Source: Nitrospirota bacterium
GTDB lineage: Bacteria > Nitrospirota > UBA9217
Direction: 5' to 3'
DNA: 43,180 bases
Assembly (NCBI GenBank): GCA_037444505.1
Contig: JBBIMH010000019.1
Span: forward strand, 4,206 to 47,385
Shown here: piece by piece, positions 1-7,629 of the stretch
How the letters are laid out: each line of letters begins with the position of its first letter
Position numbering within the stretch: position 1 is the stretch's first letter
Position numbers and translations under genes: made by a program
Notes under the pieces: generated by a model
The model's database searches: none
What the model was told of the DNA's origin: nothing
What the model saw: the letters and a program-made list of their open reading frames with translations, nothing else

Positions 1-83
1 GGCTCCGGCGGCCTCTTCACCGGGCCGCAAGCGGCAAGGAGTGAAAAAGAGAAAAATATAAAATGCAGTCCCTTAAATCGCAT
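1..83 (-). CDS. Partial lipoprotein (N-terminus only; runs off the window), possibly a second NHL-repeat lipoprotein
   Basis: Not in the ORF track. Manual translation from ATG at 83 gives MRFKGLHFIFFSFSLLAACGPVKRPPE..., a basic N-terminus, hydrophobic core and LAAC lipobox. The NHL guess is from context only. Confidence 0.65.
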   Translation of the reverse strand, partial: MRFKGLHFIFFSFSLLAACGPVKRPPE

Positions 84-156
84 CGTGATTTCCGCAATCG
101 AGCGCATCGCTGCGCCGCTTCATTCGAGCTGTGGATGGAGTCCTTCAAGGGGATTG

Positions 157-1167
157 TCACCGCCTTAGATACTGGAACACCTGCACCCTGCCGTTGATCT
201 GGTCGGCGACATAGATATAGTCCCTGTCGTCTATGAAGATTCCGGCGGGCATCCAGAAGTCTCCAAAGAGAGTCCCTGTCCTGCCCCAGCTATGGAGGAA
301 TTGGCCGTCGCCTCCAAATATCAGGATACGGTTGTTGAGCATGTCCGAAATATATACATTCCCGTCGGAGTCCACAGCAATACCCTTGGGCCGCATAGAG
401 ACGCCGGATGGATCAACGATCTCGAACTCGCGGAGATGTGTGCCGTCAGGGGTATATACCCTCACAATCCGCTGTCTGGCGTCGAGGGCGTAGAGATCGC
501 CGTTTTTATCTAAACACAGAGCTACCACGGGGCCGGTCCCCTTCGCATCCCCGCGGGATTCTATATCGAACATGAATACACCGAGGCTGTTGTAAACCCT
601 TATTCGATGAGAGCCCGGATCAACCACATAGAGCCTGCCTCGCTGTCTGTCGACGGCAAGTCCTGCAGGCGAAGCGAGCTCGCCTGACTTACCGATCTCG
701 ATCAGAGGGTTGCCCTTGAGATCCAGACCGAACACCCTGGCCTGTTGTGAGTCTGAGACAAAGATCACGTTTGCGGCATCTACCGATATCCCTGCCGGCG
801 ACAGGAGCATGAGACCGCCGCTGCTGTCCAGGATTTTTAAGGACCTGCTTGCCCTATCGAATATGAATATCCTTGCGCCGGACGTCGTTGCCGCAGAGGG
901 TTTATGGATATATGCATCAACCACGAACACCCTGAAGGCGTCTGCATATACCGCTGCCGGACGCACAAGCGCCGAGTCAGGGCTCAAAGCAGGAACAGAT
1001 TCCTTAAACCCCTCTCCTCGGAGGCTCGCCTCGTCCCGCAATGACTCCACAAACACGAGCTTGATCCGCCCCCCGGCCTCGGGCGGGACCGTTGTCTCTG
1101 GACCTGCAATAAATGCGCATCCAGGCAGGAGCACGGCAAGTATGATGGATGCAACCTGTGGTTTCAT
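157..1167 (-). CDS. NHL-repeat six-bladed beta-propeller lipoprotein
   Basis: Signal peptide with LLPGC lipobox; repeated PxGIAVDxxGxxYVxDxxNxRIxVF blades (e.g. RPKGIAVDSDGNVYISDMLNNRILIF, MPAGIFIDDRDYIYVADQINGRVQVF). Confidence 0.9.
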   Translation of the reverse strand: MKPQVASIILAVLLPGCAFIAGPETTVPPEAGGRIKLVFVESLRDEASLRGEGFKESVPALSPDSALVRPAAVYADAFRVFVVDAYIHKPSAATTSGARIFIFDRASRSLKILDSSGGLMLLSPAGISVDAANVIFVSDSQQARVFGLDLKGNPLIEIGKSGELASPAGLAVDRQRGRLYVVDPGSHRIRVYNSLGVFMFDIESRGDAKGTGPVVALCLDKNGDLYALDARQRIVRVYTPDGTHLREFEIVDPSGVSMRPKGIAVDSDGNVYISDMLNNRILIFGGDGQFLHSWGRTGTLFGDFWMPAGIFIDDRDYIYVADQINGRVQVFQYLRR

Positions 1168-1173
1168 GGCTCT

Positions 1174-1182
1174 ATTTTACCA
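1174..1182 (-). promoter_or_regulatory. Extended -10 element (TGGTAAAAT) 6 nt upstream of the NHL gene ATG; candidate leaderless promoter
   Basis: Minus strand reads TG-G-TAAAAT-AGAGCC-ATG; no Shine-Dalgarno. Confidence 0.5.
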
Positions 1183-4755: not shown

Positions 4756-4761
4756 AGAGGC

Positions 4762-6144
4762 TCATATGAGGCCGAACCTCTTCATCCTTCGCCTGAATGC
4801 GTCTCGCGGCATCTTCAGGAGTTGCGCTGCACGGGTCTGGTTGCCTGCCGCAATCTCGAGAGCCTTCTTTACAAGTGCATGCTCCACGTCTTCTATAGAT
4901 ATGCCGGATTCCGGAATCACGAATCCGTCCAGAGAGACCGGATTGCCTGTGGCGGACTGGTGCCTGTTTTCCACGATCTCCTGCGGAAGGTGCTCCGGAA
5001 GGAGCTCGTTTTCTATGTCGAATATCATTGCGCGTTCAATCGCATTCTTAAGCTCGCGGACATTCCCCGGCCATGAATAAGACAACAATATCTGCTCCGC
5101 CTCCGGTGAGATGCCTCTTACGTTCTTGTGGCACTCCTGGTTGAAATACTCTATGAAGTGCCTGGCGAGGATCAGGACGTCCCTTCCCCTTTCTCTTAGC
5201 GGCGGGAGATAAATCGGCACCACCTGGAGCCTGTAGTATAGGTCCTTCCTGAATTTGCCGTCATGGAGGGCCCTCGAAAGCTCGTGGTTCGTAGCCGAAA
5301 TGACCCTCACATCCACTTTTATGTCCTTCACCCCGCCGATGCGCTTGAAGGTCTTCTCCTCTAGCAGCCTCAAGAGCTTCGCCTGCATTCCCATGTCCAT
5401 GTCGCCTATCTCGTCGAGGAACACGGTGCCTCCGTCCGCAAGCTCGAACAGCCCTTTCTTCATGCTCTTTGCATCGGTGAATGCGCCCTTTTCATGGCCC
5501 ATGAGCTCGCTCTCCAAGAGATTCACGGGCAGGGCCGCGCAGTTGATGGCCATGAAAGGCTTGTCCGTCCTGGCGCTTGCAGCGTGTATGGCCTTTGCTA
5601 CGAGCTCCTTTCCAGTACCGCTCTCCCCCTGGATCAAAACCGTTGTCGCATCGCTCTTTGCGATCTTCAGGATGAGATCCTTTATCTTCACCATCTCGGG
5701 CGATTCGCCCACGATGGCGCCCACCCTTCCGCGGCATTCCTGTGTGAGCTGTTTCACTTGTGATCTCAAAGAGCCTGTCTCGAGCGCCTTCTTTATTACA
5801 AACGTAATCTCGTCGAGATTGAAGGGCTTGCTTATATAGTCATATGCCCCGAGTTTCATGGCCTTGACCGCCGTCTCCACCATTCCATAGGCGGTTATCA
5901 TTATGACCAAAAGCCCCCGCTCCTGCACATTCAGTTTCTCGAGGAGCTCGAGGCCTGTCATGTTCGGAAGACGGTTGTCCAAAAGCACAAGGTCCGGCAT
6001 CTCATCAGATATTATCTCCATGCCCTTCTCCGCGGTTTCGGCGGTGAGCACCTCGTAGCCGTCCCTTGTAAGGTGCTGCTCGAGCGTCCAGCGGATCAGT
6101 TTCTCGTCGTCTATAATGAGGATCTTCCTGGCCATGTCTTGCAC
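4762..6144 (-). CDS. NtrC-family sigma54-dependent response regulator (REC-AAA+-HTH_8)
   Basis: REC domain (LIIDDE, LLD, KPF); Walker A GESGTGKE; GAFTDA loop; Walker B FLDEIGD; WPGNVREL; Fis-type HTH GNQTRAAQLL. Confidence 0.96.
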   Translation of the reverse strand: MQDMARKILIIDDEKLIRWTLEQHLTRDGYEVLTAETAEKGMEIISDEMPDLVLLDNRLPNMTGLELLEKLNVQERGLLVIMITAYGMVETAVKAMKLGAYDYISKPFNLDEITFVIKKALETGSLRSQVKQLTQECRGRVGAIVGESPEMVKIKDLILKIAKSDATTVLIQGESGTGKELVAKAIHAASARTDKPFMAINCAALPVNLLESELMGHEKGAFTDAKSMKKGLFELADGGTVFLDEIGDMDMGMQAKLLRLLEEKTFKRIGGVKDIKVDVRVISATNHELSRALHDGKFRKDLYYRLQVVPIYLPPLRERGRDVLILARHFIEYFNQECHKNVRGISPEAEQILLSYSWPGNVRELKNAIERAMIFDIENELLPEHLPQEIVENRHQSATGNPVSLDGFVIPESGISIEDVEHALVKKALEIAAGNQTRAAQLLKMPRDAFRRRMKRFGLI

Positions 6145-6150
6145 CTCCTG

Positions 6151-7629
6151 TCAGGCCGCCTTTTTGGGAGCATAGGGAAAACTGATTGTAAAGCTCGCCC
6201 CCTTTCCAGGCGGGCTCACGACGCTTATCTCTCCGTTGTGCTGCTCCACGATGCGCTGAGTGATGGAAAGACCCAGGCCGGTGCCCTGCTGCCGGGTGGT
6301 AAAGAACGGGCTGAATATCCTGCCGAGCACATCGGGTGATATGCCCTTTCCCGTATCAGTAAAGGTAATCCGTACCATACCGGGGCGCGTATCGGACGCC
6401 GGTTCGAAGGATGTCTCCACCGTGAATTTTCCTCCGTCCGGCATGGCCTGGACCGCATTGAGCGAGATGTTTAGGAACGCCTGCTGGATAAGGTCGGTAT
6501 CGAGCGACAGCCAGGGTATCCCCGCAGACAGCCTCCTCTCCGCGGATATGCCGTACTTCGCGAACTGTGGCGCGAGAAAGTTGAGCAGTTTGTCTATCAC
6601 CTCGTTTATGTCCACAAGGGTCGTCTTCGGCTCCGGCGGCCTGGCGAATGAGAGGAGGTTTCTCACCGCCTTATCCATCCTCTCGACCTGCGAAAGGACA
6701 TCCTCCAGCACGGCCCGTCTCTGGTCCGTAACAGGCATGTCCTTTTTGAGCACCTGTATCACCCCTGCGATGCCAGCAAGTGGGTTCTTTATCTCGTGCG
6801 CGATCCCTGCCGCCATCTCGCCGATCGATGCCAGCCTGTCCGCACGCTTCATCTGTTCGTAGTGATATTTCTCCACCTTCCGCCTCGCCTGTTCGAGCTT
6901 CGAGACGAGCGAATTGAACGCCTCTGCAAGCCTGCCGATGTCGTCCTTGCTTTTGACATCGGCCCGTACATCCAGTCCCCTCTCCGCCCGCTCCATCGTA
7001 GCTATGAGGGCATGGACCGGGTTCGTCACGAAACGCGTGAGGAAGAGTGACAAGGACACCGCAAGTATGGTCGTGACGCCGGTCGCCCATAGGAACATGG
7101 ACTTGGAGAACTCGGCCACCTTTTCCTGCATCTGCTCCATCGAGACATCCACAGAGAGCACGCCGTTTATCTTCTGCGTCCTTCCGTGGCAGTATGCACA
7201 CGCCTCCTTGTTCTCTATCGGAAAGAGCACAGTGAATATGCCGCTATCCCTGCGCTTTATGGGCGTCCTGAACCTGTTCTCGAGGAACCATTTCTGGAGA
7301 GAGGCGTCCACCTTCCTGCCTATCAGCCACCGCTTGGAAGACTTGAGCACTACGCCGTTTGGGCTGAATATCCGGACCTCTTTTATGTTATGGTAGCTGC
7401 CCACCGCATCTATGATATTCTGGACCTCTCTGCTTTTGCCCTGGAGCATTGCATTAGACAGGCTCTTCTCTATGGTATTGGATATGATGAGGATATTGTC
7501 CTCGAGGGCGTCTTCCATCTGTAATCTCTGGTAGCCGATGTTTATCCACGTACCGAACCCGATGGTCACTGCAAGGATGACAGAGACGGAAAGTATTATC
7601 TTCGTCTTGAGGCTCGATGAGATCCTCAC
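6151..7629 (-). CDS. Membrane sensor histidine kinase with periplasmic heme c motif, HAMP, HisKA and HATPase domains
   Basis: Probable start is GTG at 7629, overlapping the pyrD TGA (GTGA); two TM helices flank CAYCH; HAMP (DDIGRLAEAFN); H-box AHEIKNPL; N/G boxes NAVQA, DTGKGI, GTGLGL. The N-terminal 120 aa in the ORF track are off-frame pyrD sequence. Confidence 0.93.
   Translation of the reverse strand: MRISSSLKTKIILSVSVILAVTIGFGTWINIGYQRLQMEDALEDNILIISNTIEKSLSNAMLQGKSREVQNIIDAVGSYHNIKEVRIFSPNGVVLKSSKRWLIGRKVDASLQKWFLENRFRTPIKRRDSGIFTVLFPIENKEACAYCHGRTQKINGVLSVDVSMEQMQEKVAEFSKSMFLWATGVTTILAVSLSLFLTRFVTNPVHALIATMERAERGLDVRADVKSKDDIGRLAEAFNSLVSKLEQARRKVEKYHYEQMKRADRLASIGEMAAGIAHEIKNPLAGIAGVIQVLKKDMPVTDQRRAVLEDVLSQVERMDKAVRNLLSFARPPEPKTTLVDINEVIDKLLNFLAPQFAKYGISAERRLSAGIPWLSLDTDLIQQAFLNISLNAVQAMPDGGKFTVETSFEPASDTRPGMVRITFTDTGKGISPDVLGRIFSPFFTTRQQGTGLGLSITQRIVEQHNGEISVVSPPGKGASFTISFPYAPKKAA

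What the first reader, a model, noticed from the sequence alone, without database searches (positions are those of the whole stretch)
1..7629. Self-contained redox-sensing electron-transfer module: heme sensor kinase, sigma54 activator, sigma54 promoter, two multiheme cytochromes, lipoproteins
Seen: a kinase with periplasmic CxxCH, an NtrC-type activator with GAFTDA, a near-perfect -24/-12 promoter with a candidate IHF site and UAS, a ~15-heme cytochrome, an octaheme OmpA-fusion cytochrome, an NHL lipoprotein and the start of another lipoprotein, all co-oriented. Established: NHL beta-propeller genes often neighbour multiheme cytochrome genes in Geobacter-type electron-transfer clusters. Inference: a regulated periplasm-spanning or extracellular electron-transfer system of about 23 hemes, switched on by periplasmic redox state or a heme ligand. 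I do not recognise this as a named system.
Basis: partly seen in the sequence, partly recalled or inferred. Interest (0 to 1): 0.82.

Follow-up and report, generated by a model that had tools for sequence, protein, structure and literature searches.

The report
Sigma-54-switched periplasmic multiheme cytochrome operon
An uncultured sulfur-cycling Nitrospirota bacterium carries a conserved gene set in which a haem-containing membrane sensor and its partner activator appear to switch on two large multi-haem cytochromes, one with a built-in cell-wall anchor, plus two propeller-shaped lipoproteins.

Summary
All the genes lie on the minus strand:
- a histidine kinase with a periplasmic c-haem PAS-like sensor (CAYCH);
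- an NtrC-type activator (GAFTDA);
- a -24/-12 promoter (GGCAC-N5-TTGCA) with an IHF-like site and a two-site enhancer;
- a cytochrome with 15 haem motifs;
- an octahaem cytochrome with an internal OmpA/MotB-like peptidoglycan-binding domain;
- two NHL lipoproteins.

The enhancer and the promoter keep their sequence and spacing in 10 of 11 orthologous loci; the IHF-like site does so in 7 of 11. The kinase, activator and cytochromes stay linked in three other Nitrospirota families despite rearrangement. The regulator-target link is therefore well supported. rpoN and HU/IHF genes are present in the genome.

The module is not fully self-contained. The kinase start overlaps the pyrD stop, and the cluster holds no quinol dehydrogenase or porin.

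The likeliest function is a redox- or ligand-induced periplasmic electron-transfer chain of 23 haems, partly docked on the cell wall. This is inferred, and no RNA data were found.

The regulatory logic resembles BccR-cbcBA of Geobacter, and the NHL pairing resembles the Uet cluster. The wall-anchored cytochrome has no description that I could find. Verdict: a new variant of a known kind, of moderate interest.

The parts
6151..7629 (-). Sensor histidine kinase of 492 aa. Layout: TM1, periplasmic c-haem PAS-like domain, TM2, HAMP, HisKA, HATPase_c. The GTG start overlaps the pyrD stop.
   Evidence: Pfam hits: HATPase_c 1e-26, HisKA 6e-16, HAMP 1e-9, PF21563 2e-7. The start was read. Orthologues are 70-76% identical in 5 syntenic loci.
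7135..7527 (-). Periplasmic sensor domain, with the haem motif CAYCH at 7186-7200 and a conserved Met (residue 61).
   Evidence: It aligns to 3b42_A (E 9e-4) and 3b47_A (E 0.16) with CxxCH in register. M61, C144, C147 and H148 are invariant in 10 sequences. The AF2 model has pLDDT 80 and hits WalK-type extracytoplasmic PAS domains and 3b42/3b47.
4762..6144 (-). NtrC-type sigma-54 activator of 460 aa: receiver, AAA+ with GAFTDA, HTH_8.
   Evidence: Pfam hits: Sigma54_activat 9e-70, Response_reg 7e-30, HTH_8 3e-10. The best NCBIfam hits are AtoC, NtrC and ZraR, all below their cut-offs.
4706..4742 (-). Putative enhancer (UAS). The proximal site is the perfect palindrome TGAGCGTATACGCTCA (4706-4721). 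The distal site is the degenerate copy AGAGCGGATTTGAACA (4727-4742), 21 bp upstream.
   Evidence: A palindrome lies 97-107 bp upstream of the GG of the -24 element in 10 of 11 orthologous loci.
4647..4659 (-). IHF-like site ATTCAATATGTTA, between the enhancer and the promoter.
   Evidence: A match with at most one mismatch to WATCAANNNNTTR lies at -37/-38 from the GG in 7 of 11 loci. Three HU/IHF-family genes are in the genome.
4607..4621 (-). Sigma-54 -24/-12 promoter GGCACatataTTGCA, 76 bp upstream of the cytochrome ATG.
   Evidence: It is conserved in 10 of 11 loci. rpoN is present at G000:C16.
3214..4545 (-). Secreted cytochrome of 443 aa with 15 haem motifs: 13 CxxCH, an N-terminal CX4CH and a C-terminal CX3CH. 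It has 32 His.
   Evidence: All 15 motifs are conserved in 20 relatives (19 for the CX4CH motif, because I cut one start too short). The best PDB match is 6r2q_A at 3e-17.
1267..3039 (-). Octahaem cytochrome of 590 aa (597 aa from the GTG at 3060). Layout: signal peptide, beta-sandwich, 3 haems, OmpA/MotB-like domain, beta-sandwich, 5 haems.
   Evidence: All 8 CxxCH are conserved in 42 sequences.
2005..2412 (-). OmpA/MotB-like peptidoglycan-binding domain inserted in the octahaem cytochrome.
   Evidence: Pfam OmpA scores 51.7 bits against a cut-off of 27.2. The AF2 model has pLDDT above 90 here. Foldseek gives probability 1.0 to MotB, PomB, OprF, Pal and OmpA C-domains. D273 is kept in 38 of 42 sequences, R292 in 36 of 42 and R335 in 42 of 42.
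157..1167 (-). NHL six-bladed beta-propeller lipoprotein 1, 336 aa, lipobox LLPGC.
   Evidence: Pfam NHL 4.5e-24. Cys17 is invariant in 38 sequences. Orthologues sit downstream of the octahaem gene in 7 loci.
1..82 (-). Start of NHL lipoprotein 2 (lipobox LLAAC). The gene runs off the left end of the window.
   Evidence: The C-terminal part scores NHL 3e-22. Part of the gene reads N in the contig.

Best explanation
This is a two-component, sigma-54-dependent switch for a periplasmic multi-haem electron-transfer operon.

Proposed mechanism:
1. The kinase carries one c-type haem in an extracytoplasmic PAS-like domain. It reports the redox state of the periplasmic cytochrome pool or a small haem ligand.
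2. The kinase phosphorylates the NtrC-type activator.
3. The activator binds a pair of TGAGCG-N4-CGCTCA-like sites about 100 bp upstream of a -24/-12 promoter.
4. Helped by an IHF-type bend, the activator opens the sigma-54 promoter.
5. The transcript encodes a secreted cytochrome with 15 haem motifs, an octahaem cytochrome and two NHL propeller lipoproteins. The octahaem cytochrome is held on the peptidoglycan by an internal OmpA/MotB-like domain.
6. Together these proteins form a 23-haem relay or reservoir inside the periplasm, fixed to the wall and to a membrane. It takes electrons from, or gives them to, membrane and outer-membrane modules encoded elsewhere in the genome.

Shown here: the parts, their conservation, the conserved promoter architecture and the regulator-target linkage.
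Inferred: haem binding, the signal sensed, peptidoglycan binding, contacts between the proteins, and the direction and purpose of electron flow.

Sensor:
- PF21563 scores above its cut-off.
- CxxCH aligns with that of GSU0935 and GSU0582 (3b42, 3b47).
- The model has a PAS-like fold.
- Met61 and CxxCH are invariant in 10 sequences, including ones only 25-29% identical.

Promoter:
- It is the only match in the window, against 0.09 expected.
- rpoN is present, as are HU/IHF genes.

Conservation of the regulatory region:
- 10 of 11 orthologous loci keep the -24/-12 element.
- The same 10 keep the palindrome 97-107 bp upstream.
- 7 of 11 keep an IHF-like site at -37/-38.
- This holds for loci where the activator gene is more than 10 kb away.
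- The palindrome has no T-run, and no terminator was called there.

Linkage:
- pyrK-pyrD-HK-NtrC-cyt15-octahaem are contiguous in 5 of the 19 loci fetched.
- In 3 loci from two other families, the kinase and activator lie within a few kb of the 15-motif cytochrome and next to an octahaem gene, in a different order.

Cytochromes:
- All 15 and all 8 haem motifs are conserved.
- There are enough His residues for bis-His ligation: 32 for 15 haems and 22 for 8.

Wall anchor:
- The OmpA fold is confidently predicted, and its D/R motif residues are conserved.

Elsewhere in the genome:
- At least 26 ORFs have 3 or more CxxCH.
- There are two NapC/NirT-type cytochromes.
- A 9-haem cytochrome sits next to a weak MtrB-like barrel.
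- dsrAB is present.
Against: - There is no expression or binding data of any kind.
- The cluster and the DNA left of the window hold no quinol dehydrogenase, porin or catalytic subunit, so the donor and the acceptor are unknown.
- The octahaem-OmpA gene was found in only 14 of 44 sampled genomes of the family.
- One relative (G022) has a 388-aa form without the OmpA insert, so the wall anchor is dispensable in some lineages.
- One locus (G005, L014) lacks the promoter and the enhancer before its 15-motif cytochrome.
- In the two other-family loci that keep a -24/-12 element, no TGAGCG palindrome with 2 or fewer mismatches lies nearby.
- Six of the 19 fetched loci hold only a 40-46% identical cytochrome of this family, with no kinase, activator or octahaem neighbours; one of them has a single NHL gene about 4 kb upstream.
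- The haem regions of the AF2 model have low confidence, with pLDDT below 50 for the last 110 residues.
Confidence: 0.6

Rival explanations
1. This is an extracellular electron-transfer conduit. The cytochromes feed an outer-membrane porin-cytochrome complex encoded elsewhere, and the NHL lipoproteins sit on the cell surface to stabilise it or to touch minerals or partner cells.
For: - The 15-motif cytochrome is most like MtrA (6r2q_A, 3e-17) and the DmsE and GSU2203 decahaem families.
- NHL proteins accompany putative extracellular cytochromes in the Uet cluster, and they are cited there for iron reduction and for stabilising outer-membrane cytochromes (passages read).
- A 9-haem cytochrome followed by a 563-aa barrel with a weak MtrB_PioB match lies on contig C29.
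Against: - No porin lies in the cluster in any of the 19 loci mapped with my queries.
- The decahaem family scores fall below their cut-offs: 131 against 192, and 145 against 325.
- The MtrB_PioB match is below its cut-off: 21 against 23 bits.
- A peptidoglycan-binding domain argues for a periplasmic location for at least the octahaem protein.
Confidence: 0.15
2. This is a ligand-induced periplasmic detoxifying or reducing system. The haem sensor binds a small molecule such as NO, CO, O2 or sulfide. The induced cytochromes, perhaps through the two unusual CX4CH and CX3CH haems or the NHL propellers, reduce a soluble oxidant or oxyanion.
For: - The sensor belongs to the GSU0582/GSU0935 family. 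From recall, and not from any call, ligand binding has been discussed for this family.
- The two non-canonical motifs are strictly conserved across the phylum.
- NHL propellers match enzyme-like families: SGL/gluconolactonase, arylesterase and lactonase.
- There is no membrane partner in the cluster.
Against: - There are enough His residues for bis-His ligation of every haem, and there is no CxxCK.
- No known catalytic cytochrome family was hit above its cut-off. NrfB scores only 39 bits against 184.
- The enzyme-like propeller hits are weak.
Confidence: 0.12
3. The operon is one half of a larger envelope machine. In sister genera the same enhancer type also drives a divergent operon for a FliG/FliF-like protein, MotA, two MotB, a TPR protein and an 18-haem cytochrome. 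The MotB-like domain of the octahaem cytochrome would dock into this ion-driven stator system.
For: - The block lies between the activator and the 15-motif cytochrome in G023, G005, G022 and G021.
- It has its own palindrome and -24/-12 element.
- The OmpA domain of the octahaem protein is closest to MotB and PomB.
Against: - The FliG-like gene was found in only 7 of the 24 other family genomes searched. It was not found in G000, which is 87% complete, nor in G003, G006 and G008, which have the full cytochrome operon.
- G016 has the stator block but no octahaem-OmpA match.
- The two modules therefore occur independently of each other.
Confidence: 0.08
4. The neighbours are unrelated. The two-component system belongs to the pyrimidine operon or to other targets, and it merely lies next to the cytochrome genes.
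For: - The kinase start overlaps the pyrD stop, and this arrangement is conserved in the family.
- A second perfect palindrome with a -24/-12 element lies on contig C15, before unrelated genes.
Against: - The kinase and activator stay beside the same cytochrome genes in other families where pyrD is not adjacent.
- The enhancer and promoter stay before the cytochrome gene even where 10 kb is inserted.
Confidence: 0.03

Closest known systems
BccR-cbcBA of Geobacter sulfurreducens (GSU0598; GSU0597-0593)
   Same: A receiver, sigma-54 AAA+ and HTH activator is encoded beside a sigma-54-dependent cytochrome operon. That operon is induced as the redox potential falls, and it needs the activator (passages of bioRxiv 10.1101/2021.04.15.440034 read).
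   Different: - The target there is an inner-membrane b/c quinone oxidoreductase. Here there is no b-type or membrane subunit.
- There the regulator is divergent and no cognate haem kinase is described in the passages I read.
- Here the kinase is adjacent and co-oriented.
Periplasmic c-haem PAS-like sensors GSU0582 and GSU0935 (PF21563; PDB 3b47, 3b42)
   Same: Pfam match above the cut-off, CxxCH in the same place, an extracytoplasmic PAS-like fold and a position between two membrane segments.
   Different: - Those are chemoreceptors. This one is the input of a HAMP histidine kinase.
- Identity is only 16-23%.
- Haem binding is not shown here.
Uet cluster of 'Ca. Tenderia electrophaga' and some Gallionella (uetABCDEFGHIJ)
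   Same: Two adjacent NHL propeller genes lie next to a large multi-haem cytochrome in a conserved, uncharacterised electron-transfer cluster (passages read).
   Different: - Uet has a 28-strand porin, a peptidyl-prolyl isomerase, a cupredoxin and three trihaem c7 proteins. I found none of these in this cluster.
- The passages I read describe no two-component/sigma-54 switch and no OmpA domain.
MtrA/DmsE decahaem family (PDB 6r2q chain A)
   Same: Densely packed CxxCH pairs (Paired_CXXCH_1). This family is the best hit among solved structures.
   Different: - There are 15 motifs, not 10.
- The score is below the family cut-off (131 against 192 bits).
- There is no adjacent MtrB-type porin.
OmpA/MotB/Pal peptidoglycan-binding domains
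   Same: The fold and the conserved Asp and Arg motif residues match.
   Different: - Here the domain is inserted between haem 3 and haem 4 of a cytochrome, together with a second beta-sandwich.
- I found no paper describing such a protein (searches; the main text of PMC11492766 has no OmpA, NHL or peptidoglycan term).

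Membership tests
c-haem PAS-like periplasmic sensor (PF21563, GSU0582/GSU0935 type) | Profile match above the curated cut-off | tested here: met
   31.6 bits against a cut-off of 27, covering residues 54-166 of the translated stretch
c-haem PAS-like periplasmic sensor (PF21563, GSU0582/GSU0935 type) | A single CxxCH near the C-terminal end of the domain, in register with the solved members | tested here: met
   CAYCH aligns to the CxxCH of 3b42_A and 3b47_A and is invariant in 10 sequences
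c-haem PAS-like periplasmic sensor (PF21563, GSU0582/GSU0935 type) | Extracytoplasmic PAS-like fold between two membrane helices | tested here: met
   The AF2 model (pLDDT 80) has long helices at 7-62 and 165-199 flanking an alpha/beta core. Foldseek hits the WalK, CitA and DcuS sensor domains and 3b42/3b47
c-haem PAS-like periplasmic sensor (PF21563, GSU0582/GSU0935 type) | Covalently bound haem that responds to redox state or to a ligand | not testable with these tools
   This needs expression with a cytochrome c maturation system, followed by spectroscopy
NtrC-type bacterial enhancer-binding protein | Receiver domain, sigma-54 interaction AAA+ domain with a GAFTGA-type loop, and a C-terminal HTH | tested here: met
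   Response_reg 7e-30, Sigma54_activat 9e-70, HTH_8 3e-10. GAFTDA is in the translation
NtrC-type bacterial enhancer-binding protein | Membership of a named equivalog (AtoC, NtrC, ZraR and others) | tested here: not met
   The best scores are AtoC 478 against 714, NtrC 441 against 559 and ZraR 368 against 760 bits
Sigma-54 promoter with enhancer | GG-N10-GC at -24/-12, with rpoN in the genome | tested here: met
   The element is conserved in 10 of 11 loci
Sigma-54 promoter with enhancer | Transcription depends on RpoN and on the activator | not testable with these tools
   No RNA run holds the stretch
MtrA/DmsE decahaem cytochrome of a porin-cytochrome complex | Family profile above the cut-off | tested here: not met
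   TIGR03508 scores 131 against 192 bits, and the GSU2203 family 145 against 325 bits
MtrA/DmsE decahaem cytochrome of a porin-cytochrome complex | An adjacent MtrB/PioB-type barrel gene | tested here: not met
   None lies in the cluster or left of it. The only genome hit is on contig C29 and falls below the cut-off
OmpA-like peptidoglycan-binding domain | Profile, fold and the conserved Asp/Arg of the binding motifs | tested here: met
OmpA-like peptidoglycan-binding domain | Binding to peptidoglycan | not testable with these tools
   This needs a pull-down with purified sacculi
Uet cluster | Two NHL genes beside a large multi-haem cytochrome | tested here: met
Uet cluster | UetC porin, PPIase, cupredoxin, trihaem c7 proteins and an undecahaem UetJ | tested here: not met
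   None of these domains occurs among the genes of the cluster. The gene list comes from the passages read
BccR-cbcBA | Dihaem b-type quinone oxidoreductase subunit CbcB together with heptahaem CbcA | tested here: not met
   The cluster has no membrane b-type subunit

The most novel reading that the evidence does not exclude
The octahaem protein is a cytochrome bolted to the peptidoglycan. Together with the cytochrome with 15 haem motifs and the two lipoprotein propellers, it forms a fixed haem path across the periplasm, in place of the diffusing carriers known from Shewanella and Geobacter. In sister genera the same enhancer also drives a MotAB/FliG-like stator operon with an 18-haem cytochrome, so the wall-docked cytochrome may be one part of an ion-coupled envelope machine.
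Probability: 0.2. Interest if true: 0.8.

Novelty: new variant of a known kind. Interest (0 to 1): 0.55.

Why it matters
- How electrons cross the wide periplasm is still argued for metal- and sulfur-cycling bacteria. A cytochrome with a built-in cell-wall anchor would be a different, and testable, answer.
- The locus offers a compact, conserved switch: a haem sensor kinase, an activator, a two-site enhancer, an IHF-like site and a -24/-12 promoter. It could be rebuilt in a model host to find out what signal a periplasmic c-haem sensor reads.
- NHL propellers recur beside multi-haem cytochromes in several phyla without any known role. This operon is a small system in which to test that pairing.
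- The host lineage is uncultured, so the value for now is as a lead and not as a result.

Tried and rejected
- Complex prediction on the octahaem-OmpA protein (residues 27-590) with NHL1 (18-336) gave no answer: score 0.00 against a mark of 0.32, and the controls were not run. I do not use it either way.
- The look-up of sequencing runs listed no RNA holder. One DNA run holds 0.91 of the words, and two hold 0.12, which I did not lay.
- Rfam at gathering thresholds gave no match in the window.
- The terminator scan called no minus-strand terminator between 1 and 7600. The only minus-strand calls are at 8974-8999, inside pyrK. The sigma-70-like sites were no more frequent than in shuffles.
- The protein atlas returned only generic 'cytochrome c3 family' clusters from several phyla for the 15-motif cytochrome.
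- MtrB_PioB in the genome gave one hit below the cut-off.
- Papers that led nowhere for this locus:
  - PMC13510729, on the pentahaem selenoprotein ExtKL/MccSep (passages).
  - PMC13647500, on Cyc2 of a Thermodesulfovibrionia MAG (passages).
  - PMC11033732, on aquifer Nitrospirota, which does not treat these cytochromes (passages).
  - PMC13442872, on OmpA-like anchors of Geobacter that are not fused to cytochromes (passages).
  - PMC11492766, whose main text has no OmpA, NHL or peptidoglycan term.
- Supplementary files were not opened. The gene tables of the Tenderiales and Gallionellaceae papers might say more about NHL genes.
- I considered reading the palindrome as a terminator of the activator gene and rejected it. 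It has no T-run, it is conserved as sequence where no gene precedes it, and some changes in the relatives break the pairing.
- I considered the HEAT and HD-domain genes as part of the operon. They follow NHL2 only in G000, G003 and G008, and not in G006, G023 or G021, so I left them out of the core.

Full report
**Anatomy**

The window is G000:C19:4206-47385, from a 1.69-Mb draft genome of 55 contigs, 87% complete. All the genes of the finding lie on the minus strand. In the direction of transcription they are:
- carB (9806-13114), greA (9327-9809), pyrK (8543-9334) and pyrD (stop at 7626);
- a histidine kinase (6151-7629);
- an NtrC-type activator (4762-6144);
- a 216-bp intergenic region;
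- a cytochrome with 15 haem motifs (3214-4545);
- an octahaem cytochrome (1267-3039, or from the GTG at 3060);
- NHL lipoprotein 1 (157-1167);
- the start of NHL lipoprotein 2 (from 82 leftwards).

Left of the window the contig holds the rest of NHL2 (part of it reads N), a HEAT-repeat gene of 687 aa, an HD-domain gene of 472 aa and then the contig end. The nearest public contigs are titled Nitrospirota or Nitrospiraceae MAGs.

**Check of the observation**

Each item is confirmed.
- The kinase has HAMP, HisKA and HATPase_c domains and a match to PF21563, the sensor of class-40H chemoreceptors, at 31.6 bits against a cut-off of 27.
- The activator has receiver, Sigma54_activat and HTH_8 domains and the loop GAFTDA.
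- The 443-aa cytochrome has 13 CxxCH plus CVTGKCH and CAPGCH. The 597-aa ORF has 8 CxxCH.
- GGCACatataTTGCA (4607-4621) is the only such site in the window, against 0.09 expected.
- The palindrome TGAGCGTATACGCTCA (4706-4721) is the only hit with at most one mismatch, against 0.21 expected.
- Only two perfect copies of the palindrome occur in the whole genome.

**The regulatory region is conserved as a unit**

I aligned the region upstream of the orthologous cytochrome gene in the window and in 10 relatives of the same family.
- Ten of 11 loci have a -24/-12 element 65-110 bp before the start codon (259 bp in one locus).
- The same ten have the palindrome 97-107 bp upstream of the GG.
- Seven of 11 have a match with at most one mismatch to WATCAANNNNTTR at exactly -37 or -38.
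- A second, degenerate copy of the palindrome lies 20-21 bp further upstream. In the window it is AGAGCGGATTTGAACA at 4727-4742. It is also seen in L013, L019 and L031.
- The exception is G005 (L014), which has none of these elements before this gene.

The elements persist in G023, G021 and G022, where about 10 kb separates the activator gene from the cytochrome gene. The palindrome is therefore not simply the end of the activator gene. No terminator was called there.

rpoN is present on C16, and there are three HU/IHF-family genes.

**Synteny**

I fetched 19 loci around relatives of the 15-motif cytochrome.
- Five (G006, G003, G008, G017, G020) have pyrK-pyrD-kinase-activator-cyt15-octahaem in one run.
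  - Four of these go on to NHL1 and NHL2. In G017 an insertion separates the two NHL genes.
  - In the fifth, G020, the contig ends inside the octahaem gene.
- Four (G023, G021, G022, G005) have the cytochrome and NHL genes without the regulators in the fetched stretch.
  - For G023, G022 and G005 the kinase orthologue (73-74% identical) lies 12-13 kb away on the same contig.
  - For G021 and G007 it lies on another short contig.
- One (G007) is a 4.7-kb contig.
- Three, from two other families (G029, G038, G036), have the 15-motif cytochrome, a haem-motif kinase, the activator and an octahaem cytochrome of about 325 aa in a different order. G036 also has an NHL gene.
- Six hold only a 40-46% identical cytochrome of the family, with no kinase, activator or octahaem neighbours. 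One of them has a single NHL gene about 4 kb upstream.

The octahaem gene was found at E ≤ 1e-40 in 22 of 201 sampled genomes of the phylum. Within the family it was found in 14 of 44.

**The proteins**

*Sensor.*
- It aligns to GSU0935 (3b42_A, E 9e-4) and GSU0582 (3b47_A, E 0.16) with the CxxCH in register.
- Met61, Cys144, Cys147 and His148 are invariant in 10 sequences, including ones only 25-29% identical.
- The AF2 model (pLDDT 80) is an extracytoplasmic PAS-like domain between two long helices. It hits the WalK, CitA and DcuS sensors as well as 3b42 and 3b47.
- The kinase GTG overlaps the pyrD TGA. Kinase and pyrD are adjacent in every family locus that holds both.

*15-motif cytochrome.*
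- It has a signal peptide and no lipobox.
- All 15 motifs are conserved in 20 relatives. One N-terminal motif is missing only because I cut the start of L030 too short.
- Its 32 His residues allow bis-His ligation throughout.
- The best solved relative is 6r2q chain A (3e-17). From recall, that chain is MtrA of the MtrCAB complex.
- The decahaem family scores are below their cut-offs.

*Octahaem cytochrome.*
- The AF2 model (pLDDT 72) shows a beta-sandwich (30-118), a trihaem stretch, an OmpA-like domain (210-345, pLDDT above 90), a second beta-sandwich (355-456) and a low-confidence pentahaem tail.
- Foldseek matches the MotB, PomB, OprF, Pal and OmpA C-domains with probability 1.0.
- D273 is kept in 38 of 42 sequences, R292 in 36 of 42 and R335 in 42 of 42. 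All 8 haem motifs are conserved.
- Only 82 clusters match it in the 5.8-billion-protein collection, and none has a name beyond 'predicted CXXCH cytochrome family protein'.
- G022 has a 388-aa form lacking residues about 208-453. In other families only the last 120 residues match, at 56-58% identity, in ORFs of 328-517 aa. In G036 and G029 these are octahaem ORFs of about 325 aa. The OmpA plus beta-sandwich block is therefore an insertion that arose within one family.

*NHL proteins.*
- NHL1 and NHL2 are six-bladed propellers with lipoboxes. Cys17 of NHL1 is invariant.

**Genome setting**

- G000 has at least 26 ORFs with three or more CxxCH.
- It has two NapC/NirT-type cytochromes.
- A 9-haem cytochrome sits next to a 563-aa barrel with a sub-threshold MtrB_PioB match.
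- dsrA and dsrB are present.

Donors and acceptors for the module could therefore be encoded elsewhere, but nothing links them to it.

**Mechanism**

Shown:
- a haem-motif sensor kinase and a sigma-54 activator;
- a conserved architecture of enhancer, IHF-like site and promoter in front of the cytochrome operon;
- linkage of these genes in three other families as well as this one;
- a confidently predicted peptidoglycan-binding fold inside one cytochrome.

Inferred:
- The sensor haem reads periplasmic redox state or a ligand.
- The phosphorylated activator binds the two sites and opens the promoter.
- The products form a 23-haem chain that is docked to the wall, through the OmpA domain, and to a membrane, through the lipoproteins.

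I rate the regulatory half at about 0.85 and the structural half at about 0.5.

**Comparison with known systems**

- The regulatory logic works like BccR-cbcBA of Geobacter. That operon encodes a b/c quinone oxidoreductase, which is absent here.
- The sensor is a member of the GSU0582/GSU0935 family by every feature I could test.
- The pair of NHL genes beside a large cytochrome recalls UetH, UetI and UetJ. The porin, isomerase, cupredoxin and trihaem genes of Uet are missing here.
- I found no description of a cytochrome with an internal OmpA-like domain.

**Verdict**

The locus is a real, conserved unit built from known kinds of parts, with one unusual protein. It is a new variant of a known kind. 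The switch-plus-cytochrome design has an experimentally studied analogue. The function rests on inference. There are no expression data.

**Limits**

No RNA run holds the locus. Supplementary files were not seen. The genome is a draft.

Noticed in passing
L050 (G023:C35:3000-22999) 7553-15705; also L051, L052 and L016: In four relatives a divergent operon lies between the activator and the 15-motif cytochrome. It encodes two unknown proteins, a FliG/FliF_C-like protein (473 aa), MotA, two MotB, a TPR protein and an 18-haem cytochrome. It has its own TGAGCG-type palindrome and -24/-12 element. The FliG-like gene was found in 7 of the 24 other family genomes searched, and not in G000. I know of no description of a stator-like system paired with a large cytochrome.
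   Followed up: partly
G000:C15:47459-50831 (L054): The only other perfect TGAGCG-N4-CGCTCA in the genome lies here. A degenerate copy sits 22 bp upstream, and a -24/-12-like site (GGCATagcaaTTGCA) about 70 bp downstream. The pair follows an ANTAR response-regulator gene. It precedes a Cys-rich 89-aa ORF, small membrane proteins and a FadL/TodX-type outer-membrane protein. It may be a second target of the same activator or of a paralogue.
   Followed up: partly
window 7626-7629: The kinase GTG start overlaps the pyrD TGA stop (GTGA). The two-component genes therefore sit at the end of a carB-greA-pyrK-pyrD pyrimidine operon, and pyrD-kinase adjacency is kept across the family.
   Followed up: partly
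G000:C19:36-3507 (L053), left of the window: A HEAT-repeat protein (687 aa) and an HD_5/HD-domain protein (472 aa) follow NHL2 directly. The same pair follows NHL2 in G003 and G008, but not in G006, G023 or G021.
   Followed up: partly
G000:C29:20963-23707 (L055): A 9-haem cytochrome is followed by a 563-aa ORF with a sub-threshold MtrB_PioB match (21 bits against a cut-off of 23). This is a candidate porin-cytochrome pair away from the window.
   Followed up: partly
G000:C21:46292-47449: The dsrA match (586 bits) contains one in-frame TAA according to the genome search. I did not look at it.
   Followed up: no
G000 contigs C6 and C20: Identical motif hits at a constant offset suggest that some of the small contigs repeat parts of larger ones. 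This would mean assembly redundancy or strain variants.
   Followed up: no
L023 (G036:C1) 11296-12971 and L021 (G029:C87) 11845-12942: In the other families a secreted protein of about 365 aa lies between the 15-motif cytochrome and the kinase. Its N-terminal motif looks like that of thiol:disulfide oxidoreductases, which is my reading and was not tested. No such gene is in the window's cluster.
   Followed up: no
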